A DNA stretch of 64,000 nucleotides, from assembly GCA_045658765.1 (NCBI GenBank), contig JAZOVP010000117.1:35303-99302 (forward strand). Direction: 5' to 3'. The notes under the pieces are model-generated. The model was not told the origin of the DNA and searched no databases. It was given only the letters and a program-made list of their open reading frames with translations. This document shows, piece by piece, positions 1,259 to 38,038 of this stretch (its first letter is position 1; every line of letters starts with the position of its first letter). The DNA is from Eubacteriales bacterium. GTDB taxonomy: Bacteria > Bacillota > Clostridia > Oscillospirales > SIG627. Made by a program: the position numbers and the translations under genes.

Positions 1259-2980
1259 ATGAAAAAATTGATGCTTGGCAACGAAGCGGTTGCCCGCGGT
1301 CTTTTTGAGGCCGGTTGCAGTTTTGTTTCGAGCTATCCCGGCACTCCCAGCACCGAGATCACCGAAGCAGTGGCAAAATATGCCGAAATTTATGCCGAAT
1401 GGGCACCCAATGAAAAAGTGGCAATGGAAACCGCTTTCGGTGCTTGTCTTGCAGGGAAAAGAAGCTTTTGCGGAATGAAGCACGTGGGGCTGAATGTTGC
1501 CGCAGATCCGCTTTTCACCATTTCCTATACCGGAGTGAATGCCGGTATGATCATCGCAGTGGCAGACGATGCGGGAATGCACTCTTCTCAAAATGAGCAG
1601 GATTCCCGTCATTATGCGCGCGCTTCGAAAATTCCGATGCTCGAGCCCGCCGATTCTGCAGAGGCAATTTCATTCGTGAAGAAAGCGTATGAAATTTCCG
1701 AGAAATTCGATACTCCCGTGCTTTTGAAAATGTGCACTCGCGTTTCCCATTCCCAAAGCGTGGTGGAAGAGGGCGCGAGAATCGAAGCTGTGAAGGAATA
1801 TGAAAAGAATCCTCAAAAATATATTATGATGCCCGGCAATGCCAAAAAGCGCCATCCGATTGTGGAAGCGCGCACCGCGGCGCTCACTTCATTTGCCGAA
1901 GAATCGGATTTAAACCGAATCGAAGAAGGAAAGAGCAAGAAAATCGGCTTCCTTTCTTCTTCCACCTCGTATCAGTATGTGCGCGAGGTATTCGGCGATG
2001 AATATCCCGTTTTCAAACTCGGTATGATTTGGCCCATGCCCGTGGAAAAGATTCGCAAATTTGCCGCCGAAGTGGAAAAGCTTGTGGTGGTGGAAGAACT
2101 CGACGGATTCATCGAAGAGCACGTTCGCGGGCTCGGGATTGATGTGGTTGGAAAAGAAATCTTTTCCAATATCGGCGAATTCAGCCAGAATCTGGTTGCA
2201 GGGCTTATGGAAAGAGAAGTTCCCGAAGGAAAGGCGCTTGCCGAAGAAATTCCCCAGCGTCCGCCCGTGATGTGTGCCGGTTGCCCCCACAGAGGACTTT
2301 TCTATACCCTCGTGAAAAATAAAATCACCGTGCTTGGTGATATTGGATGCTATACCCTCGGTGCGGTGCCCCCGCTTGCGGCTCTGGATACCACCATTTG
2401 CATGGGCGCTTCGGTTTCGGGTCTTCATGGTTTTGTGAAGGCGCAGGAAGGCAAGGCAGATGGAAAGACGGTTGCGGTGATCGGCGATTCCACCTTTATG
2501 CACTCGGGAATCACAGGCCTTGTGAACATTGCATACAACAATTCCAATTCCACCGTGATCATTGTGGACAACTCCATCACCGGCATGACCGGTCATCAGC
2601 AGAATCCCACCACGGGCATGAATTTGAAGGGCGATGTGGCGGCAAAAGTGGATCTGGAATCGCTTTGCCGTGCTTGCGGAATCGAAAGAGTGAGAGTGGT
2701 GGATCCGTATGATCTTGCCGAAACCGAAAAGGTGATTTTGGAAGAGCTTGGCGTTGCCGCTCCTTCCGTGATCATTTCCAGAAGACCTTGTGCGCTTTTA
2801 AAATATGTGAAGCATCAAGGCCCTATCGCGGTGAATTCGGAAAAATGTGTTGGCTGTAAGGCCTGCATGAAGATCGGTTGCCCTGCGATCAGCGTGAAAA
2901 ATAAAAAAGCCATGATCGATAACACCCTTTGCACAGGTTGCGGTGTTTGCACCCAGCTTTGCAAATTCGGGGCGCTGTAA
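1259..2980 (+). CDS. iorA: indolepyruvate:ferredoxin oxidoreductase, alpha subunit
   Basis: 573 aa. N-terminus MKKLMLGNEAVARG..SSYPGTPSTEI, a TPP-binding region, and a C-terminal double CxxCxxC ferredoxin motif. AAAGGAG RBS 8 nt upstream. Followed by iorB. Confidence 0.9.
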   Translation: MKKLMLGNEAVARGLFEAGCSFVSSYPGTPSTEITEAVAKYAEIYAEWAPNEKVAMETAFGACLAGKRSFCGMKHVGLNVAADPLFTISYTGVNAGMIIAVADDAGMHSSQNEQDSRHYARASKIPMLEPADSAEAISFVKKAYEISEKFDTPVLLKMCTRVSHSQSVVEEGARIEAVKEYEKNPQKYIMMPGNAKKRHPIVEARTAALTSFAEESDLNRIEEGKSKKIGFLSSSTSYQYVREVFGDEYPVFKLGMIWPMPVEKIRKFAAEVEKLVVVEELDGFIEEHVRGLGIDVVGKEIFSNIGEFSQNLVAGLMEREVPEGKALAEEIPQRPPVMCAGCPHRGLFYTLVKNKITVLGDIGCYTLGAVPPLAALDTTICMGASVSGLHGFVKAQEGKADGKTVAVIGDSTFMHSGITGLVNIAYNNSNSTVIIVDNSITGMTGHQQNPTTGMNLKGDVAAKVDLESLCRACGIERVRVVDPYDLAETEKVILEELGVAAPSVIISRRPCALLKYVKHQGPIAVNSEKCVGCKACMKIGCPAISVKNKKAMIDNTLCTGCGVCTQLCKFGAL

Positions 2981-2991
2981 AGGAGGCAAAA

Positions 2992-3564
2992 ATGGAAACT
3001 AAAAATATTATGATCGTTGGTGTGGGCGGACAGGGAAGTCTGCTTGCCTCCAAACTTTTGGGTCGTCTTCTTCTCACCCGCGGATACGATATTAAGGTGT
3101 CTGAAGTTCACGGAATGAGCCAGCGCGGCGGCAGTGTGGTAACTTATGTGCGCTTTGGCGATCAGGTATATTCTCCCGTGATCGATAAAGGTCAGGCCGA
3201 TTTTATTGTTTCGTTTGAACTGCTGGAAGGCGCTCGCTGGACCGAATATTTGAAAAAGGGCGGGAAAATGGTGGTGAACACCCAAAAAATCAATCCTATG
3301 CCCGTGATCATCGGTGCCGCGGAATATCCCGAAAATCTTGATCAAAAAATCAAGGAAGCGGGAATTGATCTGGATGCTTTCGATGCCCTTTCTTTGGCAG
3401 TGGAAGCGGGAAGCGCCAAAGCGGTGAATATTGTGCTGATGGGCAAGCTTTCCAAGTATTTTGATTTTTCTGAGGAAGAATGGATGAAAGCCATAGAAAT
3501 GAGCGTGCCCGCAAAATTCCTCGAACTCAATAAAAAGGCATTCCTTCTCGGAAGAGAGGCATAA
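2992..3564 (+). CDS. iorB: indolepyruvate:ferredoxin oxidoreductase, beta subunit
   Basis: METKNIMIVGVGGQGSLLASK is typical of the 2-oxoacid:ferredoxin oxidoreductase gamma-like fold. AGGAGG RBS at 2981. Start moved from the tracked 2929 to the ATG at 2992. Confidence 0.85.
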   Translation: METKNIMIVGVGGQGSLLASKLLGRLLLTRGYDIKVSEVHGMSQRGGSVVTYVRFGDQVYSPVIDKGQADFIVSFELLEGARWTEYLKKGGKMVVNTQKINPMPVIIGAAEYPENLDQKIKEAGIDLDAFDALSLAVEAGSAKAVNIVLMGKLSKYFDFSEEEWMKAIEMSVPAKFLELNKKAFLLGREA

Positions 3565-3575
3565 AAGGAGAAACC

Positions 3576-4874
3576 ATGAAACGTTATTATCAGCCCGAAA
3601 TTGAAACGGCTTCGCGCGATGAGATTCGCGCACTCCAATCCGAGCGCCTTGTGAAGCAAGTGCAGCACGTTTGGGAGAATGTGCCCTATTACCGCAAAAA
3701 AATGGAAGAAAAGGGAATTACCCCTGCCGATATTCGCGGCGTGGAAGATCTTCATAAGCTTCCCTTTTTAACCAAAGACGATTTAAGACAGGCCTATCCT
3801 TATGGCCTTATGGGCAAGCCCGTGAAGGATTGTGTGCGCATTCATTCCACTTCCGGCACCACGGGAAAAAGAGTGGTGGCATTCTATACCCAACACGATA
3901 TTGATCTTTGGGAAGATTGCTGCGCCAGAGCCATTATGGCAACGGGCTGTGATGAAAACGATGTGTGCCAAGTTTGCTATGGCTACGGCCTTTTCACAGG
4001 CGGCTCGGGGCTTCACGGCGGATCTCATAAGGCAGGGTGCCTAACCCTTCCGATGTCTTCCGGCAACACCGACCGTCAGCTTCAATTTATGGTGGATTTG
4101 GAATCGACCCTTCTTTGCTGCACCCCTTCCTATGCCGCCTATCTTTCCGAATCGATTGCCGAAAGAGGGCTTCGCGATCAGATCAAATTGAAAGCGGGCA
4201 TTTTTGGTGCGGAAGCTTGGAGCGAAGAAATGCGCCACGAAATTGAAAAAGGGCTTGGCATCAAGGCCTATGATATTTATGGACTCACCGAAATCTCCGG
4301 CCCCGGTGTGGCTTTTGAATGTGAAGAGCAAACGGGTATGCACGTGAATGAAGATCACTTCATCGCCGAGATTATCGATCCGGAAACAGGCGAGGTTTTG
4401 CCGGAAGGCGAAAAAGGCGAGCTTGTGTTTTCTTGCATCACCAAAGAAGCATTTCCGCTTTTGCGCTATCGCACCCGTGATATTTGTGTGCTTTCCCGCA
4501 AACCCTGTTCTTGCGGCAGAACCCATGTGAAAATGACAAAGCCCATGGGCAGAAGCGATGATATGCTGATTGTGAAGGGCGTGAATGTGTTCCCAAGCCA
4601 GATCGAAACGGTTTTGATCGAGCAGGGTTATCAGGCAAACTATCAGATCATTGTGGATCGAGTGAATCATTCCGATACTTTGGAAGTGCAGGTGGAAATG
4701 ACTCCCGATAAATTCACCGATTCGCTTTCCAAGATTTCGGAAATGGAGAAAAAGCTTGTGGAATCGCTCAAAACGATGCTTGGAATTTATGCCAAGGTCA
4801 AGCTCGTTGCTCCCAAATCCATTGCAAGAAGCGAAGGCAAGGCCGTTCGCATTATTGATAAGCGTAAGATTTAA
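3576..4874 (+). CDS. paaK: phenylacetate-CoA ligase family protein
   Basis: 432 aa. STSGTTGKRVV AMP motif, YGLTE, and the canonical ior-paaK-ACT gene order. Confidence 0.85.
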   Translation: MKRYYQPEIETASRDEIRALQSERLVKQVQHVWENVPYYRKKMEEKGITPADIRGVEDLHKLPFLTKDDLRQAYPYGLMGKPVKDCVRIHSTSGTTGKRVVAFYTQHDIDLWEDCCARAIMATGCDENDVCQVCYGYGLFTGGSGLHGGSHKAGCLTLPMSSGNTDRQLQFMVDLESTLLCCTPSYAAYLSESIAERGLRDQIKLKAGIFGAEAWSEEMRHEIEKGLGIKAYDIYGLTEISGPGVAFECEEQTGMHVNEDHFIAEIIDPETGEVLPEGEKGELVFSCITKEAFPLLRYRTRDICVLSRKPCSCGRTHVKMTKPMGRSDDMLIVKGVNVFPSQIETVLIEQGYQANYQIIVDRVNHSDTLEVQVEMTPDKFTDSLSKISEMEKKLVESLKTMLGIYAKVKLVAPKSIARSEGKAVRIIDKRKI

Positions 4875-31341: not shown

Positions 31342-31998
31342 TTATCCTTTCTTAAAAGAGGGGATTTTGGAAACTGCCAGTGAGGCGATGGCGGTGAGAA
31401 TGATTTCGGGGATCATATAAAGACCGTTGTAGACCAGGGAATACACAATGGCAAGACCCGTGCCCGAGAAGGTGCTCATCACCCAAGAGGAGATGGCAAG
31501 ATCCTTTGCGGCGCTTTCCAAGAAGAACCATTCAGCCCATGCGCCGTAGAAGATGGCGCCCGAGAGGGTGTGGAAAAGATAGCAGAGGAAAAGAGCGAAC
31601 ACAGAACCCCAGAAAAGCGCCCATTTTTGAGAAAGGCGATTTCGGAAAATGCCTGCCAAGCCCACGGATGTGAACGCGAGAATGTAATCAATGAGCAAAA
31701 TGAGGAAGGCAATGCCCACCGAGCCCATATAGGAATCGGAATCGGGAATGAAAAGCGCCGATACCGTGCGGAAGCCAACCGCCATTTGCAAAAGGGAATA
31801 CACGAAGGCGCTTCCGAGACCCCAACGGATGCCGTAGAGGTAGGAGATCAGAACGAGAGGCAAAAGACTTGCCAAGGTGATGGTGCCGCCGAAAGGAAGA
31901 TTTAAAAAGGGGATCCATTCGGACACCAAGGAAAGGGCGGTTCCCAGCGAAATGAGCATTGCAGAGGTAACCAGTTTTTTTGTTTTCGAGTGTTTCAT
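31342..31998 (-). CDS. thiT: ECF transporter S component for thiamine
   Basis: 218 aa with 6 TM segments. Lies directly downstream of a TPP riboswitch. AAGGAG RBS before the ATG at 31998. The tracked ORF extends into the riboswitch. Confidence 0.8.
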   Translation of the reverse strand: MKHSKTKKLVTSAMLISLGTALSLVSEWIPFLNLPFGGTITLASLLPLVLISYLYGIRWGLGSAFVYSLLQMAVGFRTVSALFIPDSDSYMGSVGIAFLILLIDYILAFTSVGLAGIFRNRLSQKWALFWGSVFALFLCYLFHTLSGAIFYGAWAEWFFLESAAKDLAISSWVMSTFSGTGLAIVYSLVYNGLYMIPEIILTAIASLAVSKIPSFKKG

Positions 31999-32007
31999 AA
32001 AAAACTC

Positions 32008-32150
32008 CTTAAAAAAATTCGCACAGGACGGAAGTCCCGTGCGAACGCGAATCTGGTTCTCTTGAAAACTCCCTACGCCGGTATTATCCATCTCAGGTTA
32101 AAGGGTTTGCGGTTTTCCGCATCTCAGCCGTAGCACCCCTGTTTTTCCGC
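32008..32150 (-). promoter_or_regulatory. TPP (THI-box) riboswitch with an intrinsic-terminator expression platform
   Basis: Minus strand reads GGGGUGCUACGGCUGAGAUGCGGAAAACCGCAAACCCUUUAACCUGAGAUGGAUAAUACCGGCGUAGGGAG, which contains the CUGAGA and ACCUGA..GGAUAAU.CC.GCG core. It is followed by the hairpin gcacgggac-uucc-guccugugc and a U7 run (32011-32045). Confidence 0.88.
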
Positions 32151-32166
32151 TCTTGTGCGTGAGATT

Positions 32167-32195
32167 ATCTTATCTGCTTTTTTTATGTTTGTCAA
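32167..32195 (-). promoter_or_regulatory. sigma-A promoter driving the TPP riboswitch and thiT-thiN
   Basis: Minus strand reads TTGACA, 17 nt, TAAGAT. The -35 lies 9 nt from the terL-like ATG on the other strand. Confidence 0.55.
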
Positions 32196-32203
32196 GTGAG
32201 AAA

Positions 32204-33574
32204 ATGAAATCTATTGAAAAATTTTTAAATTCGATTCATCCGTTTCCGCCTCAGGAAGAGTTTTTCCGCGCGAAGGCAAGAAGAATTGCCTATGGCGGGG
32301 CAAGAGGCGGCGGAAAAAGCTTTGCGATGCGAGCAAAGCTTGTGCTTTTGGCGCTTCGCTATCCCGGAATTCAAATTTTGCTTTTAAGAAGAAGCTTTCC
32401 CGAGCTTCGCGAAAATCATATCAATCCGCTTCGAAAATGGCTTTACGGGATTGCCACCTTTCGGGAATCCACAAAGGAATTTTTGTTTGCCTCTGGCTCG
32501 CGCATCAAGCTCGGTTATCTTGCCGAGGAGGGGGATGTGCTTCAATATCAGGGGCAGGCGTATGAAGTGATTGGCATGGAAGAGGCAACGCAGTTCACGG
32601 AAGCGCAGTATTACGCGATGACGGAATGTTGCCGCCTTTCGGGGCAAATGAAAGAAAAATTCACTCCGAGAATGTATTTTACTTGCAATCCCGGCGGGGT
32701 GGGGCATGCTTGGGTGAAGCGCCTTTTTATTGATCGGGATTACCGAGATGGGGAGGCGGCGGAGGATTATGTGTTTATTCCTTCCACGGTATACGACAAT
32801 CGGTATTTGATTCGGGAAAACCCCGAATATGTGCGAAATCTTGAAAGTTTGCCTCCGCTTCGCCGAAAGGCGATGCTGGAGGGGGATTGGGATGTGTTTG
32901 AGGGGCAGTATTTCACGGAATTTGATCGGAAAAAGCACGAAATTAAGCCCTTTGAAATTCCCGATTCCTGGCATCGCTTTGCGGCGATGGATTATGGGCT
33001 TGATATGACCTGCTGCCTTTGGTTTGCCTATCCTCCCGATCGAAGCCGCATTGTGATTTATCGCGAGCTCTATGAACCCTCTCTGGTGCTTTCTGCGGCG
33101 GCGGAGAAGATTTTGAAATTTCAAGGAAAAGAAGAGCTTCGTTATCTTACCGCTTCGCCCGATTTATCGGGAAGAAGGCAGGATGCGGGCAAAACGGGCT
33201 TTGATATTTTGAAAAACTGCGGACTTCGCGGGCTTGTTTCGGCGGATAACGAAAGGATTGCGGGGTGGCGCAGGGTGAGAGAATTCCTTCGAGCCGAAAC
33301 GGAAGAAGGGGCTTATTTGGGGATTTTTCCATCGTGCCGAAATCTGATTCGAACCCTGCCGCGACTCACCTTTGATTCGGTGAAAACAGAAGATGCCGCG
33401 ATTCATCCCCATGAATATACCCATGCTCCCGATGCTTTGCGCTACGGGCTTTCTTCTTTGCCTTTTTTGCCGGGAGAAATCAGGGCGGAAAAGGAGATTG
33501 TGCGCGATATTAAGGCGGAATTTTTTGGGAAGAAGCAGGGGAATCAGAGTTATATCGGCTTTTTGAAAAAATAA
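32204..33574 (+). CDS. phage terminase large subunit-like protein
   Basis: 456 aa. Walker A YGGARGGGKSF, an ATPase core (ILLLRRSFPEL, GMEEATQF), and a C-terminal RNaseH-like nuclease region (AMDYG...HAPDALRYG). No obvious RBS. The tracked start at 32153 lies inside the riboswitch promoter region. Confidence 0.8.
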   Translation: MKSIEKFLNSIHPFPPQEEFFRAKARRIAYGGARGGGKSFAMRAKLVLLALRYPGIQILLLRRSFPELRENHINPLRKWLYGIATFRESTKEFLFASGSRIKLGYLAEEGDVLQYQGQAYEVIGMEEATQFTEAQYYAMTECCRLSGQMKEKFTPRMYFTCNPGGVGHAWVKRLFIDRDYRDGEAAEDYVFIPSTVYDNRYLIRENPEYVRNLESLPPLRRKAMLEGDWDVFEGQYFTEFDRKKHEIKPFEIPDSWHRFAAMDYGLDMTCCLWFAYPPDRSRIVIYRELYEPSLVLSAAAEKILKFQGKEELRYLTASPDLSGRRQDAGKTGFDILKNCGLRGLVSADNERIAGWRRVREFLRAETEEGAYLGIFPSCRNLIRTLPRLTFDSVKTEDAAIHPHEYTHAPDALRYGLSSLPFLPGEIRAEKEIVRDIKAEFFGKKQGNQSYIGFLKK

Positions 33575-33603
33575 TTGACTCCGCACTTTTTCTTTGCTAC
33601 AAT
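33575..33603 (+). promoter_or_regulatory. sigma-A promoter for the QueG-like gene
   Basis: TTGACT, 17 nt, TACAAT. It begins immediately after the terL-like stop codon. Confidence 0.55.
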
Positions 33604-33619
33604 CTTTGCGGAGGATCTT

Positions 33620-34414
33620 ATGCTCAAAGAATTTTTTGAAAGAGAAAACATTGAATTTTATTCCACGCTGAAGGCGAAGGATCTTGTGATTTGGGACAAG
33701 GCAAAAATGGCTCGGGTGGAAGAAGAGATCGGCGAGGTGAAATGCGCGGTGATCTTTTTGATTCCGTATTTTGCGGGTCAGAAAACCACCAATCTTTCGA
33801 TTTATGCCCAGCCGAGGGATTATCACTATTTTCTTTTGCTTTTATCGGAGCGTTTTGAGGAATACCGAAACAAAAAGGGGCTTTCTTTTTCGTTTCGTGG
33901 ATTTGCCGATTCCTCGCCGCTTGCCGAGCGCGATGCCGCGCTGAAGGCGGGGCTTGGTGTTTTGGGGAAAAATGGGCTGATTTTAAATGAAAAATACGGC
34001 TCGTTTGTGTTTATCGGCGCATTCTTTTTGAATGAAGAATTGCCCGCAGAGCAGATTTTGGAAAAAATGAATTGCCCCGCTTGCGGGGAGTGCGAAAAGG
34101 CGTGCCCCACGGGAGCGATTTTTGATCCCGAGAGGAAAACATGCCTATCGCTTATTTCGCAAAAGAAAAATCGCTCGCCCGAGGAAGATGTGCTTTTGGA
34201 AAAAGCCGAATGTAAATGGGGATGCGATTTATGCCAAAATGTTTGCCCGATGAATCGATTTGCCGAGAAAACCCCGATTCCCTTCTTTTTGGAGGATCAT
34301 ATCATAGAGCTTTCGGAGGATGTGATCGGAATGGAAAAAGAAGAATTTAAAAAACGCGCCTTTTCCTGGCGAGGCAAGGCCATTTTAAAGAGAAACCTTG
34401 CAATAGAAGAATAA
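33620..34414 (+). CDS. epoxyqueuosine reductase (QueG)-family 4Fe-4S protein, short form
   Basis: 264 aa. CPACGECEKACPTGAI and CDLCQNVCPMN ferredoxin motifs. The N-terminal region is DUF1730-like. Confidence 0.6.
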   Translation: MLKEFFERENIEFYSTLKAKDLVIWDKAKMARVEEEIGEVKCAVIFLIPYFAGQKTTNLSIYAQPRDYHYFLLLLSERFEEYRNKKGLSFSFRGFADSSPLAERDAALKAGLGVLGKNGLILNEKYGSFVFIGAFFLNEELPAEQILEKMNCPACGECEKACPTGAIFDPERKTCLSLISQKKNRSPEEDVLLEKAECKWGCDLCQNVCPMNRFAEKTPIPFFLEDHIIELSEDVIGMEKEEFKKRAFSWRGKAILKRNLAIEE

Positions 34415-34416
34415 GA

Positions 34417-34445
34417 AAGAACACCCAAGAGGGTGTTCTTTTTTT
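34417..34445. terminator. bidirectional terminator, copy 1 of a thrice-repeated hairpin
   Basis: aagaacaccc-aaga-gggtgttctt followed by a T-run. Confidence 0.85.
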
Positions 34446-34447
34446 GA

Positions 34448-34681
34448 TCAATCTTTTATTTTTTTCAAGCAAGCGGGGCATAGCAGAAGATCGCTTTTCT
34501 GAATCAGATCGCCATCTTTTCCGCAAATGCAGCAAACGGACTTTTCCTTTTGCAAAATGATTTCTTGATTTTCAGGATCAAGTTTCATTAAAACGGAAGA
34601 ATTTGGGGATAAATGAAGCTGATCTCTGATATTTTTGGGAATCACAATTCTTCCCAAGGGGTCAATTTGTTTTATTGTCAT
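34448..34681 (-). CDS. AbrB/MazE/SpoVT-type DNA-binding protein with a C-terminal CxxC..CxxC zinc ribbon (copy 1)
   Basis: 77 aa, MTIKQIDPLGRIVIPKNIRDQL...CCICGKDGDLI...CPACLKKI. GAGGTG RBS before the ATG at 34681. Confidence 0.8.
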   Translation of the reverse strand: MTIKQIDPLGRIVIPKNIRDQLHLSPNSSVLMKLDPENQEIILQKEKSVCCICGKDGDLIQKSDLLLCPACLKKIKD

Positions 34682-34771
34682 AAAATCACCTCGGTTTATT
34701 TTACTACGATTTGATAGTAAAATCAATACTATTATTTGATAGTACATATACTTAACATTGAGGTGAGAGAT

Positions 34772-34990
34772 ATGTATTATCCACGATTAAAAGATTTGCG
34801 TGAAGATCGCGATTTGGTTCAAAAAGAAGTTGCGGCATTTCTTGGGATTGATCAAAGAGTATATAGCAATTATGAAACCGGCAAAAGAGATATTCCCACG
34901 CGTTTTGTGGTTTTGCTCGCAAAATATTATAACACTTCCGCTGATTATATACTGGGTTTAACCAATGAACCTAATTTTGGTAAAAAATAA
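34772..34990 (+). CDS. XRE-family helix-turn-helix regulator
   Basis: 72 aa. LVQKEVAAFLGIDQRVYSNYETGKRDIP is a classic Cro/CI HTH. GAGGTGAG RBS. Confidence 0.8.
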   Translation: MYYPRLKDLREDRDLVQKEVAAFLGIDQRVYSNYETGKRDIPTRFVVLLAKYYNTSADYILGLTNEPNFGKK

Positions 34991-35004
34991 ACTAAAAAAT
35001 AAAA

Positions 35005-35033
35005 AAGAACACCCGAGAGGGTGTTCTTTTTTT
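35005..35033. terminator. bidirectional terminator, copy 2 of the repeated hairpin
   Basis: aagaacaccc-gaga-gggtgttctt followed by a T-run. Confidence 0.85.
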
Positions 35034-35035
35034 GA

Positions 35036-35266
35036 TCAATCTTTTATTTTTTTCAAGCAAGCGGGGCATACCAGAAGATCGCTTTTTTGAATCAGATCGC
35101 TATCTTTTCCGCAAATGCAGCAAACCGGCTCTTCTTTTTTCAATATGATTTCTTGATTTTCAGGATCAATCTTGATGAAAAGGGCAGAGTTTGGGAATAA
35201 ATGAAGCTCTTCTCTGATATTTTTGGGAATCACAATTCTTCCCAAGGGGTCTATTTTTCTGATCAT
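35036..35266 (-). CDS. AbrB/MazE/SpoVT-type DNA-binding protein with a C-terminal zinc ribbon (copy 2)
   Basis: 76 aa, MIRKIDPLGRIVIPKNIREEL...CCICGKDSDLI...CPACLKKIKD. About 80% identical by eye to copy 1. Confidence 0.8.
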   Translation of the reverse strand: MIRKIDPLGRIVIPKNIREELHLFPNSALFIKIDPENQEIILKKEEPVCCICGKDSDLIQKSDLLVCPACLKKIKD

Positions 35267-35334
35267 AATGGAATTTCCTTTTTTTATTGAATTTTCGTTT
35301 GGCGCTTTCCGAGGTGCCAAAAAGAATCTAACTA

Positions 35335-35379
35335 TATGGGGGTTATATCCCCTTAATATTCGAGATTATAACCCCCATA
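35335..35379. promoter_or_regulatory. perfect 13-bp inverted repeat (candidate operator) in a divergent promoter region
   Basis: TATGGGGGTTATA (35335-35347), 19 nt, TATAACCCCCATA (35367-35379). Confidence 0.6.
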
Positions 35380-35404
35380 ATAATAAATGTCAAGGGGGAT
35401 GATT

Positions 35405-35608
35405 ATGATTGTATTTGACCGACTTTGGAACACGATGAAGGAAAAAGGTTTTTCCACGTATCAATTAAGAGAGCGTTGTGGAATCGACAGCAAAACGATC
35501 CGAAGATTAAAAGCGAACGAAAATATCGAAACAAAAACGATTGATAAGATTTGTTTGGCATTGAAATGTCGCATCGAGGATGTGGCGGAATATATTGAGG
35601 ATCGATAA
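35405..35608 (+). CDS. XRE-family helix-turn-helix regulator (different subfamily from 34772)
   Basis: 67 aa, MIVFDRLWNTMKEKGFSTYQLRERCGIDSKTIRRLK. AGGGGGA RBS before the ATG at 35405. Confidence 0.75.
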   Translation: MIVFDRLWNTMKEKGFSTYQLRERCGIDSKTIRRLKANENIETKTIDKICLALKCRIEDVAEYIEDR

Positions 35609-35615
35609 ATAAAAA

Positions 35616-35645
35616 AAGAACACCCAAAAAGGGTGTTCTTTTTTG
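35616..35645. terminator. bidirectional terminator, copy 3 of the repeated hairpin
   Basis: aagaacaccc-aaaaa-gggtgttctt followed by a T-run. It also closes the convergent GGGtGRT operon. Confidence 0.85.
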
Positions 35646-35659
35646 TTTCAAGTGATTTC

Positions 35660-36661
35660 TTATTTGTTGAGAGCCATGGAGATTTCTACGGCTACTGCAA
35701 CGGTGGCGCCTACCATGGGGTTGTTGCCCATACCGATAAGACCCATCATTTCCACGTGAGCGGGAACGGAGGAAGAACCTGCGAACTGCGCATCGCCGTG
35801 CATACGGCCCATGGTATCGGTCATACCGTAGGAAGCGGGGCCTGCTGCCATGTTATCGGGGTGGAGGGTGCTGCCCGTGCCGGCGCCGGAAGCAACAGAG
35901 AAGTATTTTTTGCCGTTTTCGATTGCCCACTTTTTATAGGTTCCTGCAACGGGGTGCTGGAAGCGGGTGGGGTTGGTGGAGTTGCCGGTGATGGAAACGT
36001 CTACCGATTCGTGACGCATGATGGCACCGCCTTCGAGAACGTCGTTTGCACCGTAGCAACGAACCTTTGCTCTTTCGCCATCGGAATAAGCTTTGGTTTT
36101 CACGATCTTAAGTTCGCTATCGGTGAAGTTGTATACGGTTTGCACAAAGGTGAAACCGTTGATTCTGGAGATGATGTGAGCGGCATCTTTGCCCAGACCG
36201 TTGAGGATGATCTGGAGGGGCTCTTTACGAACCTTGTTTGCAGTTTTTGCGATACCGATTGCGCCTTCTGCTGCTGCGAAGGATTCGTGGCCTGCGAGGG
36301 AGCAGAAGCACTTGGTTTCTTCGCGGAGGAGCATTGCGGCAAGATTACCGTGGCCAAGACCAACATCGCGGGTTTCGGCAACGGAACCGTGGATACAGAA
36401 TGCCTGAAGACCGATACCGATTGCTTCAGCAGCTTCGGCAGCGGTTTTCACACCCTTCTTCACTGCGATTGCAGCGCCGAGGGTATATGCCCAAGAAGCA
36501 TTTTCGAATGCGATGGGCTGAACGCCTTTTACAAGGGCATCAACATCAACACCGAGATCCAAGCAGATCTTCTGGGCTTCTTCAAGAGAAGCGATGCCGT
36601 ATTCTTTCAGGCACTCGTTGATTTTATCAATTCTTCTTTCGTAACCTTCAAATTTAACCAT
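35660..36661 (-). CDS. GGGtGRT-family protein (function unknown)
   Basis: 333 aa. N-terminus MVKFEGYERRIDKINECLKEYGI. C-terminal FSVASGAGTGSTLHPDNMAAGPASYGMTDTMGRMHGDAQFAGSSSVPAHVEMMG matches my recollection of the family, with the name motif reading GAGTGST here. Confidence 0.75.
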   Translation of the reverse strand: MVKFEGYERRIDKINECLKEYGIASLEEAQKICLDLGVDVDALVKGVQPIAFENASWAYTLGAAIAVKKGVKTAAEAAEAIGIGLQAFCIHGSVAETRDVGLGHGNLAAMLLREETKCFCSLAGHESFAAAEGAIGIAKTANKVRKEPLQIILNGLGKDAAHIISRINGFTFVQTVYNFTDSELKIVKTKAYSDGERAKVRCYGANDVLEGGAIMRHESVDVSITGNSTNPTRFQHPVAGTYKKWAIENGKKYFSVASGAGTGSTLHPDNMAAGPASYGMTDTMGRMHGDAQFAGSSSVPAHVEMMGLIGMGNNPMVGATVAVAVEISMALNK

Positions 36662-36672
36662 CTTGTGCCTCC

Positions 36673-37368
36673 TTATTCTTCGCGGGGATCAATGTATTTC
36701 ACTGCGGCGTCGTATCTGCCGTAGCTCTTCACATTGGCCTCGTATGCTTCCTTGGGATCTTTGCCGTGACGGATGGCTTCCATCATCTTTCCGAGATGAA
36801 CGAATTTATAGCCGATGATTTCGTTGTCTTCATCAAGACCGAGGGAGAGAATATAGCCCTCTGCCATTTCGAGATAGCGAACGCCTTTTTCGTTGGTAGC
36901 GAAGATGGTACCAACCTGGCTGCGAAGACCCTTGCCCAAATCGTCGAGGGTGGAGCCGATGGGAAGTCCGTCTTCGGAGAAGGCGGTCTGGGTTCTGCCG
37001 TATACGAGCTGGAGGAAGATTTCTCTCATTGCAACGTTGATTGCATCGCAAACAAGGTCGGTGTTGAGAGCTTCCAGAATGGTTTTGCCTTGGAGGATTT
37101 CAGCTGCCATAGCGGCGGAGTGGGTCATACCGGAGCAACCGCTGGTTTCAACGAGTGCTTCTTCGATAATACCTTTTTTAACATTGAGGGTGAGTTTGCA
37201 CATACCCTGCTGGGGTGCGCACCAACCGATACCATGGGAAAGACCGGAAATATCGGTTACATCGTATGCCTTAACCCATCTTCCTTCTTCGGGAATGGGG
37301 GCCGGGCCGTGCTTGGGGCCTTTTGCCACAACGCACATGTTTTCTACATCTTCGGTAAACATGTTCAT
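36673..37368 (-). CDS. NifU/IscU-N-terminal-like Fe-S scaffold-type protein
   Basis: 231 aa. Cys-containing blocks GWCAPQQGMC, SGCSGMTHSAAMAAE and DLVCDAINVA resemble the three-Cys IscU arrangement. Confidence 0.65.
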   Translation of the reverse strand: MNMFTEDVENMCVVAKGPKHGPAPIPEEGRWVKAYDVTDISGLSHGIGWCAPQQGMCKLTLNVKKGIIEEALVETSGCSGMTHSAAMAAEILQGKTILEALNTDLVCDAINVAMREIFLQLVYGRTQTAFSEDGLPIGSTLDDLGKGLRSQVGTIFATNEKGVRYLEMAEGYILSLGLDEDNEIIGYKFVHLGKMMEAIRHGKDPKEAYEANVKSYGRYDAAVKYIDPREE

Positions 37369-37391
37369 TTTAAAATTCCTTTCGTTTTTAA

Positions 37392-37964
37392 TTAGTCAAC
37401 CAAAACGCCCATGGTGCCGGGAGCGGCGAGGGCGGCATTGGATTCATCGGTGTCGATGTGCATGGCAGCGGCGAATTTTTCGCTTACTCTTACCACAACC
37501 TCATCGAAAATGAGAGCTCTTTCGCCCTCAACGCGAATTTTCACGATTTCTTTATCCTTCACTCCGAATGCTTCTGCATCGGCGGGGGTGAAGTGAATAT
37601 GACGCTTTGCAACGATCACGCCTTCGGCGAGTTCCACGCTCTTATCGCCAACCGAAATGGTGCAGGCGCCGGAACCGGCAACGTCGCCGGATTCGCGGAT
37701 GGGAGCTTTGATGCCCAGTGCTCTTGCATCGGTGGCGGAAACCTCTACCTGAGATGCGGGACGGGCGGGTCCGAGGATGATTACGTTTTTGATGGTGCCT
37801 TTGGGGCCTGCGATATCCACTCTTTCTTCACAAGCGAACTGACCGGGCTGGGACAGATCCTTCTTGTGGGTGAGCTCATATCCTTTGCCGAACAGGGCTT
37901 CGATATGCTCTGCAGACAAATGGACATGGCGGGCGGAAGTTTCAACAAGTACCTTCTTTTCCAT
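37392..37964 (-). CDS. pduL: phosphate propanoyltransferase PduL
   Basis: 190 aa. Duplicated SARHVHLS / AKRHIHFT motifs and AAMHIDTDE are diagnostic of PduL. Confidence 0.85.
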   Translation of the reverse strand: MEKKVLVETSARHVHLSAEHIEALFGKGYELTHKKDLSQPGQFACEERVDIAGPKGTIKNVIILGPARPASQVEVSATDARALGIKAPIRESGDVAGSGACTISVGDKSVELAEGVIVAKRHIHFTPADAEAFGVKDKEIVKIRVEGERALIFDEVVVRVSEKFAAAMHIDTDESNAALAAPGTMGVLVD

Positions 37965-38008
37965 AATGAATTCTCCTATCTTTTTTGCTTAAATTGCTGA
38001 ACCGATTT

Positions 38009-38038
38009 ATTATACTACAATTTATGGACTTTTGTAAA
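38009..38038 (-). promoter_or_regulatory. sigma-A promoter of the pduL, NifU-like, GGGtGRT operon
   Basis: Minus strand reads TTTACA, 18 nt, TATAAT. Confidence 0.5.

What the first reader, a model, noticed from the sequence alone, without database searches (positions are those of the whole stretch)
35660..38038. Three-gene operon pduL, NifU/IscU-like, GGGtGRT: a tightly coupled module with no assigned pathway
One TTTACA-18-TATAAT promoter (38009-38038) drives three genes separated by only 23 and 11 nt. They are PduL phosphate acyltransferase (37392-37964), a 231-aa three-Cys IscU-like protein (36673-37368) and a 333-aa GGGtGRT-family protein (35660-36661). A strong terminator closes the unit.

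PduL normally works inside propanediol or other acyl-CoA pathways, yet no pdu, eut, microcompartment shell or acyl-kinase genes are nearby. As far as I know the GGGtGRT family has no experimentally assigned function. Its name motif reads GAGTGST in this copy.

An acyl-CoA/acyl-phosphate transferase combined with an Fe-S scaffold-like protein and an unknown enzyme suggests an undescribed acyl-phosphate or thioester-handling pathway. That interpretation is inference only.
Basis: partly seen in the sequence, partly recalled or inferred. Interest (0 to 1): 0.65.

Follow-up and report, generated by a model that had tools for sequence, protein, structure and literature searches.

The report
PduL joined to NifU-like/GGGtGRT pair
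The three-gene operon is real, but its conserved core is only a two-gene pair (an iron-sulfur-type protein plus the 'GGGtGRT' protein) that is almost unchanged across gut anaerobes, highly expressed, iron-regulated and still of unknown function; the phosphotransacetylase gene pduL joins it in only about one lineage in ten.

Summary
On the minus strand, pduL (37392-37964), a NifU-like gene (36673-37368) and a GGGtGRT gene (35660-36661) sit 23 and 11 nt apart, between an 11/12 sigma-70 match and a strong terminator.

- **Conserved unit:** only the NifU-like→GGGtGRT bicistron is conserved. It is present in 75 of 75 informative loci, at 73-97% identity, from about nine phyla by record label.
- **pduL linkage:** pduL lies within 8 kb in 8 of 80 of those loci. 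Conversely, 7 of 80 PduL loci carry the pair. The linked loci fall in at least four clades and show three architectures.
- **PduL type:** it lacks an encapsulation peptide, keeps all six metal ligands and has no shell genes nearby. This is the known housekeeping type.
- **NifU-like protein:** it is not a canonical scaffold. It has four invariant Cys, mostly out of register with IscU, and lacks the labile Asp, LPPVK and any neighbouring desulfurase.
- **GGGtGRT:** no invariant Cys, no solved fold relative by Foldseek, and no characterised function in papers up to 2026.

Best reading (inferred): an abundant, iron-dependent two-subunit Fe-S protein complex that here shares a transcript with acetate-branch PduL.

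The GAGTGST motif, together with F121S and V212G, is private to this one assembly.

The parts
38009..38038 (-). sigma-70-like promoter, TTTACA-18-TATAAT
   Evidence: 11 of 12 consensus matches. The -10 hexamer ends 44 nt upstream of the pduL ATG. The site count in the region is not above shuffles, so this is a plausible promoter only.
37392..37964 (-). pduL: PduL-type phosphotransacylase, 190 aa, without an N-terminal encapsulation peptide
   Evidence: PF06130 E 1e-81; NF011652 271 bits (cutoff 209); below the BMC_EutD cutoff (283 against 315). H13, H15, E74, H122, H124 and H169 correspond to the six Zn ligands of rPduL at a constant offset of 35 (plus the sequence). No shell genes in the window.
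36673..37368 (-). NifU/IscU-like protein, 231 aa: an IscU-like core (about residues 48-105) plus N- and C-terminal regions with no family match
   Evidence: weak NifU_N/IscU similarity confined to residues 48-115. Foldseek finds IscU/SufU (prob about 1, TMt about 0.5) for the N-terminal half, on a poor model. C50, C57, C78 and C107 are invariant; 100% identical proteins exist in public MAGs, and typical relatives are 84-86% identical.
35660..36661 (-). GGGtGRT-family protein, 333 aa; the name motif reads GAGTGST in this copy
   Evidence: PF14057 E 2e-188; no NCBIfam model. F121S, V212G, G260A and R264S are private to this assembly. AF2 pLDDT 80, pTM 0.82, residues 259-301 unmodelled; no PDB fold match (best E 0.03, TM at most 0.29).
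35612..35644 (-). intrinsic terminator closing the operon
   Evidence: 14-bp stem, 5-nt loop, T-run.: -20.5 kcal/mol, z = -5.5.

Best explanation
**Shown**
- The window carries a single transcription unit. A housekeeping PduL phosphotransacetylase (not microcompartment-associated) precedes a universal, self-contained bicistron: NifU-like gene, then GGGtGRT gene.
- The bicistron is the conserved functional unit.
- pduL has been recruited to it repeatedly, but only in a minority of Clostridia lineages.

**Inferred**
- The two proteins form a stoichiometric complex.
- The NifU-like subunit holds a stable, fully Cys-ligated Fe-S cluster and is not a transient assembly scaffold.
- The Cys-free GGGtGRT subunit supplies the substrate or phosphate/nucleotide site. 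Candidate elements are its glycine-rich loops (GLGKDAA, SGGGTGRT) and its invariant His/Asp/Glu residues.
- The complex acts as an abundant, iron-dependent enzyme or redox protein of anaerobic fermentative metabolism.
- Where pduL is co-transcribed, the complex is expressed together with, and may act near, the acetyl-CoA/acetyl-phosphate step.
- The reaction itself is unknown.
For: **Architecture**
- The NifU-like gene lies directly upstream of GGGtGRT in 75/75 informative loci, usually 9-45 nt apart.
- The same holds in a 50%-identical divergent branch, where the two genes overlap, in a Vibrio at 64% identity, and in Parabacteroides and Collinsella.
- A Pfam census of 200 flanking genes shows no other conserved neighbour.

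**Stable cluster rather than scaffold**
- Four invariant Cys.
- IscU Cys37 aligns to Gln and Asp39 to a gap.
- 0 of 73 sequences have LPPVK or CGD.
- No cysteine desulfurase within 8 kb in 80 loci.

**Cys-free partner**
- GGGtGRT has no invariant Cys once divergent members are included.
- Its most conserved stretch, 259-301, is the only part AF2 cannot place, as expected for a cofactor or partner interface.

**Abundance**
- The three genes have the strongest codon bias of 23 window genes: Nc 32.8-36.5 against 39.9 for groEL.
- It gives visible 2-D gel spots in C. pasteurianum.

**Iron dependence**
- BT0173-74 is repressed 11-13 fold in low iron (PMC10434189).
- Both C. pasteurianum proteins rise with iron, alongside hydrogenase and rubrerythrin (PMC5395762). 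This is the behaviour of iron-using proteins.

**pduL link**
- Linked loci fall in at least four clades and three gene orders.
- The control neighbours TyrRS and YigZ are confined to one clade.
Against: - No cluster, complex or activity has been shown for any member.
- The only family signal for the small subunit is to assembly scaffolds. In Collinsella the pair lies 1.9 kb downstream of sufBDSU.
- B. thetaiotaomicron transposon mutants grow normally on glucose and show only a 2-fold regulatory effect, so the pair is not a core glycolytic or biosynthetic enzyme there.
- The glycine-loop readings (GxGxxA, P-loop-like) are motif resemblances only.
- 90% of loci lack pduL, so any acetyl-phosphate connection cannot be general.
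- This window's own GGGtGRT copy carries changes at four otherwise invariant positions, so it may not be fully functional.
Confidence: 0.5

Rival explanations
1. The pair is an Fe-S cluster handling system (assembly, storage, repair or delivery). The NifU-like protein is the scaffold or carrier. GGGtGRT is an accessory factor, for example a nucleotide-dependent release or loading factor.
For: - NifU_N/IscU is the only detectable homology, by sequence and by fold.
- Cys78 matches IscU Cys63 in register.
- Expression is iron-responsive.
- Collinsella places the pair just downstream of sufBDSU.
- The pair is dispensable in vitro, with mild pleiotropic regulatory effects in B. thetaiotaomicron, as expected for a redundant maturation factor.
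- SGGGTGRT loosely resembles a phosphate-binding loop (my reading of the sequence).
Against: - Scaffold hallmarks are missing: the labile Asp, the Cys37 register and LPPVK.
- No desulfurase is linked in 80 loci, and the suf adjacency occurs once in about 85 loci.
- Expression falls rather than rises in low iron.
- Abundance and codon bias are at or above chaperonin level.
- GGGtGRT has no conserved Cys with which to receive a cluster.
Confidence: 0.22
2. One reading: PduL, the NifU-like protein and GGGtGRT are three steps of one undescribed acyl-CoA/acyl-phosphate pathway. For example, GGGtGRT/NifU-like makes or consumes an acyl-phosphate or thioester that PduL interconverts.
For: - The genes are tightly spaced in one operon here.
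- The pduL-pair juxtaposition recurs in at least four clades and three gene orders. With only a few kb of a genome of a few Mb counting as adjacent, chance adjacency would be well under 1% per genome (my estimate, not a computed test).
- A statistically insignificant resemblance exists between SVASGGGTGRTLHPD..ASYGMTDT and the crotonase oxyanion-hole segment (E 0.8).
Against: - About 90% of loci with the pair lack pduL, including all Bacteroidota, Vibrio, Treponema and Melainabacteria loci.
- About 90% of this PduL's relatives lack the pair and sit among housekeeping genes.
- No acyl-kinase, aldehyde dehydrogenase or CoA-ligase co-occurs.
- Sharing a strong promoter among highly expressed fermentation genes is a sufficient alternative explanation.
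Confidence: 0.13
3. The pair is a redox or oxidative-stress protectant of strict anaerobes, in the functional class of rubrerythrin and flavodiiron proteins, and is not a carbon-metabolism enzyme.
For: - Flavodiiron genes are the immediate upstream neighbour in 3 loci.
- The P. distasonis locus has TlpA, OsmC and a nitroreductase around the pair.
- In C. pasteurianum the pair co-varies with rubrerythrin.
- It is abundant yet dispensable in vitro.
- It is restricted mostly to anaerobes.
Against: - These neighbours do not recur.
- No peroxidase or oxidase motif or fold was found.
- The rumen proteome groups it with carbon- and sulfur-metabolism enzymes.
Confidence: 0.1

Closest known systems
BT0173-BT0174 of Bacteroides thetaiotaomicron (GGGtGRT protein plus 'NifU homolog')
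   Same: - Same two-gene pair.
- It is co-regulated: 11-13-fold down in low iron (PMC10434189).
- It was hit as one locus in a transposon screen for loss of glucose repression of Cur, alongside pfkA (bioRxiv 10.64898/2026.04.10.717545).
- Bacteroidota members fetched here are 73-75% identical to the window protein.
   Different: - No pduL is attached (in the Parabacteroides locus).
- It is uncharacterised biochemically, so it offers no mechanism to transfer.
IscU/NifU/SufU Fe-S assembly scaffolds (PF01592)
   Same: - The core beta-sheet plus helix of residues about 48-105 aligns.
- Foldseek recovers IscU and SufU structures.
- The GC(S/G) cysteine (Cys78, matching IscU Cys63) is in register.
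   Different: - The protein is twice as long, with unmatched N- and C-terminal regions.
- IscU Cys37 aligns to Gln and Asp39 is absent.
- There is no LPPVK.
- There are two extra invariant Cys (C50, C57).
- No desulfurase partner is linked.
- It scores far below the equivalog cutoffs.
PduL phosphotransacylase: the microcompartment type (Salmonella, R. palustris) and the housekeeping type (Moorella PduL1/PduL2)
   Same: - Full-length PF06130 match.
- All six Zn ligands are present.
   Different: - About 35 N-terminal residues, the encapsulation peptide, are missing.
- No shell genes are nearby.
- It therefore matches the housekeeping type, not the microcompartment type (PMC4784909, PMC8065083).
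Heteromeric Fe-S enzymes encoded as small-subunit/large-subunit bicistrons (for example two-subunit L-serine dehydratase)
   Same: Analogy from general knowledge only: a tightly coupled two-gene unit, one partner linked to an Fe-S cluster, found in anaerobes.
   Different: No sequence or fold relation was detected. This is a working analogy, not a membership claim.

Membership tests
GGGtGRT (PF14057) | Full-length match to the family HMM above the gathering score | tested here: met
   625 bits against a cutoff of 27; residues 4-328 match profile positions 1-325 of 327.
GGGtGRT (PF14057) | The name motif GGGTGRT | tested here: not met
   This copy reads GAGTGST. 77 of 78 motif instances found in the fetched loci (L001-L080), 61 of 61 aligned homologues and 14 of 14 members of its own 90% cluster read GGGTGRT. 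The deviation is private to one assembly and does not affect HMM membership.
GGGtGRT (PF14057) | NifU-like partner gene immediately upstream (an empirical rule established here) | tested here: met
   11-nt gap in the window; present in 75/75 informative loci.
IscU/NifU scaffold (PF01592; TIGR01999, TIGR03419, TIGR01994) | HMM score above the curated cutoffs | tested here: inconclusive
   Pfam 22.7 bits against 22.0, covering only residues 58-103. NCBIfam equivalogs score 22-25 bits against cutoffs of 92-192.
IscU/NifU scaffold | Three cluster-ligand Cys in register (E. coli Cys37, Cys63, Cys106) plus the labile Asp39 | tested here: not met
   HMMER alignments to E. coli and human IscU put Cys37 opposite Gln and Asp39 opposite a gap. 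Only Cys63 matches Cys78. The alignments stop before Cys106. 0 of 73 sequences contain CGD.
IscU/NifU scaffold | LPPVK chaperone-recognition motif (ISC-type scaffolds) | tested here: not met
   0 of 73 sequences.
IscU/NifU scaffold | Genomic linkage to a cysteine desulfurase | tested here: not met
   No class-V aminotransferase hit in L001-L080. The window's own one is 18 kb away. The single suf adjacency, in Collinsella, does not recur.
IscU/NifU scaffold | Transient cluster assembly and transfer to apo-proteins | not testable with these tools
   Needs anaerobic biochemistry.
PduL phosphotransacylase (PF06130) | HMM match and the dimetal ligands (rPduL His48, His50, Glu109, His157, His159, His204) | tested here: met
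   (E 1e-81). H13, H15, E74, H122, H124 and H169 are read from the sequence against the residues named in PMC4784909.
Microcompartment-associated PduL | N-terminal encapsulation peptide and shell genes (PF00936) in the locus | tested here: not met
   The PTAC domain starts at residue 7. The ligand offset of 35 implies the encapsulation peptide is absent. The PduA probe finds no shell gene in the 64-kb window, although it detects them in control loci L150 and L163.
PduL phosphotransacylase | Acyl-CoA + phosphate <-> acyl-phosphate + CoA activity, and substrate preference | not testable with these tools
   Needs an enzyme assay.

The most novel reading that the evidence does not exclude
NifU-like/GGGtGRT is a previously unrecognised class of two-subunit iron-sulfur enzyme with a new fold. 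It catalyses a still-unassigned, high-flux reaction of anaerobic fermentative metabolism. The recurrent fusion to pduL would point to the acetyl-CoA/acetyl-phosphate or a phosphorylated-intermediate node. That would also explain why its loss perturbs glucose sensing in Bacteroides.
Probability: 0.3. Interest if true: 0.85.

Novelty: new member of a known kind. Interest (0 to 1): 0.55.

Why it matters
**Why the pair matters**
- GGGtGRT and its NifU-like partner are among the most conserved and most abundant proteins of gut and rumen anaerobes that still lack any function.
- They are 73-82% identical between loci labelled as different phyla, and at least 597 species-level loci were found.
- They are strongly iron-regulated.
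- They are a hit in a Bacteroides glucose-sensing screen.

**What this analysis adds**
- The obligate unit is the two-gene pair.
- The small subunit lacks the hallmarks of an assembly scaffold.
- pduL is the only functionally named gene that joins the pair repeatedly and independently.

These three points turn a 'domain of unknown function' into a defined experiment: co-purify the two proteins, look for the cluster, and test acetyl-CoA, acetyl-phosphate and phospho-metabolites.

**For this window itself:** the instance is ordinary, apart from its four private substitutions.

Tried and rejected
**Searches for a fold or family relative of GGGtGRT**
- Sequence search of PDB with the protein and with a profile: only spurious hits to designed repeat proteins, a guanylyl cyclase (E 0.003-0.05) and a crotonase segment (E 0.8).
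- Foldseek of the AF2 model against PDB: best E 0.03, TM at most 0.29, only generic Rossmann-like partial overlaps.
- Pfam at E up to 10 on the whole protein, on domain pieces and on the C-terminal half of the NifU-like protein: nothing else.
- The exhaustive search of 1.84 billion representatives found only about three full-length 50%-identity clusters and no distant relatives. Apparent fusion proteins were chimeric or frameshifted assemblies.

**Searches for context clues**
- Riboswitch or leader upstream of the pair: none in the window or in 8 diverse loci.
- Conserved neighbours that could name a pathway: none in 200 flanking genes. Single occurrences of FBPase, TIM, iPGM, transaldolase and RPE are about background.
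- In the divergent locus L081, the His_Phos_1 and ApgM neighbours are suggestive of phospho-metabolite chemistry but occur once.
- Suf, OsmC, TlpA and nitroreductase neighbours seen in single annotated genomes do not recur.

**Motif resemblances, recalled from memory and not pursued as evidence**
- SGGGTGRT against deviant Walker A (KGGxGKT).
- GLGKDAA against GxGxxA.
- ITGNSTNP and GHESF against the phosphohexomutase TASHNP and GEESF loops; the order along the chain is wrong for homology.

**Not done**
Full report
**1. Observation**

The gaps are 23 and 11 nt, and each gene has a Shine-Dalgarno-like run before it.

Family assignments:

| Gene | Match | Score |
|---|---|---|
| pduL | PF06130 PTAC | E 1e-81 |
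| GGGtGRT gene | PF14057 | E 2e-188; no NCBIfam model |
| NifU-like gene | NifU_N | 22.7 bits against a cutoff of 22, residues 58-103 only |

The NifU-like protein scores far below the cutoffs of the NCBIfam scaffold equivalogs.

TTTACA-18-TATAAT at 38038-38009 is an 11/12 match ending 44 nt before the pduL ATG. Promoter-like sites in the region are no more frequent than in shuffles (2 against 2.6), so it is plausible rather than demonstrated. The terminator at 35644-35612 is strong: -20.5 kcal/mol, z = -5.5.

The three genes have the strongest codon bias of 23 window genes examined (Nc 32.8-36.5; groEL 39.9). This fits high expression.

**2. What is conserved**

A scan of one genome per species found at least 597 loci that encode a GGGtGRT relative. 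The 80 kept are 73-97% identical to the window protein. By record title they come from:
- Bacillota, Bacteroidota, Actinomycetota and Spirochaetota;
- Verrucomicrobiota, Elusimicrobiota and Planctomycetota;
- Melainabacteria.

Annotated collections add Vibrio (64%), Persicobacter, Collinsella and Parabacteroides. MAG binning errors may inflate the phylum list.

An exhaustive HMMER search of 1.84 billion 50%-identity representatives shows the family is nearly a single cluster. Only about three representatives are full length, the most divergent at 50% identity. The rest are fragments or chimeras.

In every locus where the contig extends far enough (75/75), the NifU-like gene sits directly upstream on the same strand, usually 9-45 nt away. 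The same pairing holds:
- in the 50%-identical branch, where the partner is 54% identical and the two genes overlap;
- in Vibrio;
- in annotated Parabacteroides and Collinsella.

The partner is as conserved as GGGtGRT itself: typical relatives are 84-86% identical.

A Pfam census of the 200 nearest flanking genes finds no other conserved neighbour. Flanks differ in content and orientation, and the gaps are usually over 100 nt. No riboswitch or leader precedes the pair. The conserved unit is therefore an autonomous bicistron, not a three-gene module.

**3. The pduL link**

pduL lies within 8 kb of the pair in 8 of 80 loci, in three arrangements:

| Arrangement | Loci |
|---|---|
| Directly upstream, as in the window | L001, L002, L005, L009, L062 |
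| Directly downstream | L003 |
| Two genes downstream | L037, L039 |

An independent metagenome scan started from PduL returned 80 loci at 57-70% identity. Seven have the NifU-like gene, followed by GGGtGRT where the contig extends far enough, immediately downstream.

On a neighbour-joining tree of the concatenated pair, the pduL-linked loci fall in at least four separate clades. As a control, the equally frequent neighbours TyrRS and YigZ are confined to one clade, which is plain synteny.

The linkage is therefore recurrent and probably selected, but it is present in only about a tenth of the sampled lineages. Both samples were biased towards relatives of this window.

**4. The PduL protein**

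- All six zinc ligands described for R. palustris PduL (PMC4784909) are present: H13, H15, E74, H122, H124 and H169.
- They sit at a constant offset of 35 residues. The roughly 35-residue N-terminal encapsulation peptide is therefore missing.
- A PduA probe detects shell genes in the two most distant PduL loci (L150, L163). It finds none in the 64-kb window or in L001-L080.
- Neighbours of this PduL clade are housekeeping genes: ClpP-like, TmcAL, and one acetate kinase.
- Peptide-free PduL acting as the ordinary phosphotransacetylase is established for Moorella PduL1/2 (PMC8065083) and was noted for non-microcompartment PduLs (PMC4784909).

**5. The NifU-like protein**

- Similarity to IscU, NifU and SufU is real but limited to residues about 48-105. 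Foldseek agrees, although the model is poor (pLDDT 59).
- In HMMER alignments to E. coli and human IscU, Cys37 falls opposite Gln and the labile Asp39 opposite a gap. Only Cys63 is in register, matching Cys78.
- Across 73 sequences C50, C57, C78 and C107 are invariant and C12 is nearly so.
- None of the 73 contains LPPVK or CGD.
- No cysteine desulfurase lies within 8 kb in 80 loci.

These features fit a protein that keeps a fully Cys-ligated cluster better than a transient scaffold. This is inference; no cluster has been shown.

**6. GGGtGRT itself**

- The AF2 model (pLDDT 80, pTM 0.82) has an N-terminal helical domain and a central alpha/beta domain.
- The most conserved stretch, 259-301 (SGGGTGRTLHPDN...GSSSVPAH), is the only unmodelled part.
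- No Cys is invariant once divergent members are included.
- Invariant residues include H104, H125, H267, H288 and H302, several Asp and Glu, and two glycine-rich loops.

**7. Literature**

Thirteen papers in the library mention GGGtGRT, and none assigns a function.

| Source | Finding |
|---|---|
| PMC11204068 | 'Poorly characterised', yet highly expressed in vivo in Bacteroides, Blautia, Megamonas, Megasphaera and Succinatimonas |
| PMC12078515 | Called functionally unclear in 2025 |
| PMC10434189 | BT0173-74 falls 11-13 fold in low iron |
| PMC5395762 | Both C. pasteurianum proteins rise with iron, together with hydrogenase and rubrerythrin |
| 2026 preprint | Insertions in BT0173-4 relieve glucose repression of Cur about 2-fold, in the same screen that hit pfkA, without a growth defect on glucose |

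**8. Interpretation**

*Best-supported reading (confidence about 0.5).* The pair is an obligate two-subunit, iron-dependent Fe-S protein complex of anaerobic metabolism with an unknown reaction. In this lineage it is co-transcribed with the acetate-branch phosphotransacetylase.

*Rivals.*
- An Fe-S handling system, about 0.22. The only homology and one suf adjacency favour it. The missing scaffold hallmarks, repression in low iron and very high abundance count against it.
- A redox-stress protectant, about 0.10. Scattered flavodiiron, OsmC, TlpA and nitroreductase neighbours favour it, but they do not recur.

**9. Peculiarity of this copy**

The window's GGGtGRT carries F121S, V212G, G260A and R264S. 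All four positions are invariant in 61 other aligned sequences. All four are canonical in the 14 other sampled members of its own 90% cluster and in its 96-97% identical relatives L001 and L002.

The exact sequence exists on one public contig of 115,223 bp. Synonymous divergence from L001 and L002 is high, while amino-acid changes are few overall. The gene is therefore still constrained.

Whether these four changes are real or assembly errors cannot be decided here.

**10. Verdict**

The element is a further member of a catalogued but functionally unknown gene pair, in a minority operon architecture.

Its interest lies in the family, not in this instance. The family is a very conserved, abundant, iron-regulated 'known unknown', and the question is now sharply posed.

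Noticed in passing
window 35660-36661 (codons 121, 212, 260, 264): This GGGtGRT copy has four substitutions (F121S, V212G, G260A, R264S) at positions invariant in all other compared sequences, including its 96-97% identical relatives. The exact sequence occurs on a single public contig. It is either a real strain variant that tolerates loss of the motif Arg, or an assembly error.
   Followed up: partly
L001 10432-10527; L002 12626-12739; phage-collection hits H13-H16: The last 32-38 codons of the GGGtGRT gene are duplicated 1.4 and 3.6 kb downstream in the two closest relatives. Phage-type integrases are the immediate neighbour in 5 of 100 flanking genes. Several human-gut virome contigs end inside the gene's 3' end. 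The 3' end of GGGtGRT therefore looks like an integration site for temperate elements. No duplicate is present in the window.
   Followed up: partly
window 32153-35608: Directly downstream of the operon lie two AbrB/MazE-like genes (34448-34747, 35036-35320), two small Cro/XRE-type HTH genes (34736-34990, 35387-35608), a Fe-S protein with 4Fe-4S dicluster (Fer4) motifs that looks like epoxyqueuosine reductase QueG (my reading) (33575-34414) and an orphan phage terminase large-subunit gene (32153-33574). This may be the remnant of a mobile element next to the GGGtGRT 3' end.
   Followed up: partly
window 32053-32150 (-): A TPP riboswitch (63.5 bits against a gathering score of 54.3) lies upstream of a YuaJ/ThiT-type thiamine transporter gene (31342-32091).
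   Followed up: no
window 35633-36724 (+): A 363-aa antisense ORF spans the whole GGGtGRT gene. Equivalent antisense ORFs appear in 27 related loci. It is most likely a by-product of the gene's strong codon bias and not a gene.
   Followed up: partly
L081 4392-8580: The 50%-identical divergent GGGtGRT branch keeps the NifU-like partner, with overlapping genes. It sits between two membrane-like proteins without family matches (304 and 326 aa) and a histidine-phosphatase-family gene that overlaps the 3' neighbour. An archaeal-type cofactor-independent phosphoglycerate mutase lies about 1.5 kb upstream of the NifU-like gene. The organism is unknown.
   Followed up: partly
L166 5800-5991; L167 1-3367: In Parabacteroides distasonis a 63-aa predicted membrane ORF is annotated between the NifU-like and GGGtGRT genes, and the pair is flanked by TlpA, OsmC and nitroreductase genes. 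In Collinsella aerofaciens the pair lies 1.9 kb downstream of sufB-sufD-sufS-sufU, separated by a transposase. Neither context recurs in the other loci.
   Followed up: yes
window 1259-4874: An indolepyruvate/2-oxoacid:ferredoxin oxidoreductase-like gene (TPP and 4Fe-4S domains), with a short downstream ORF (2929-3564) I did not test, is followed by a phenylacetate-CoA-ligase-like gene. This is an aryl-acyl-CoA-forming fermentation module 30 kb from the pduL operon.
   Followed up: no
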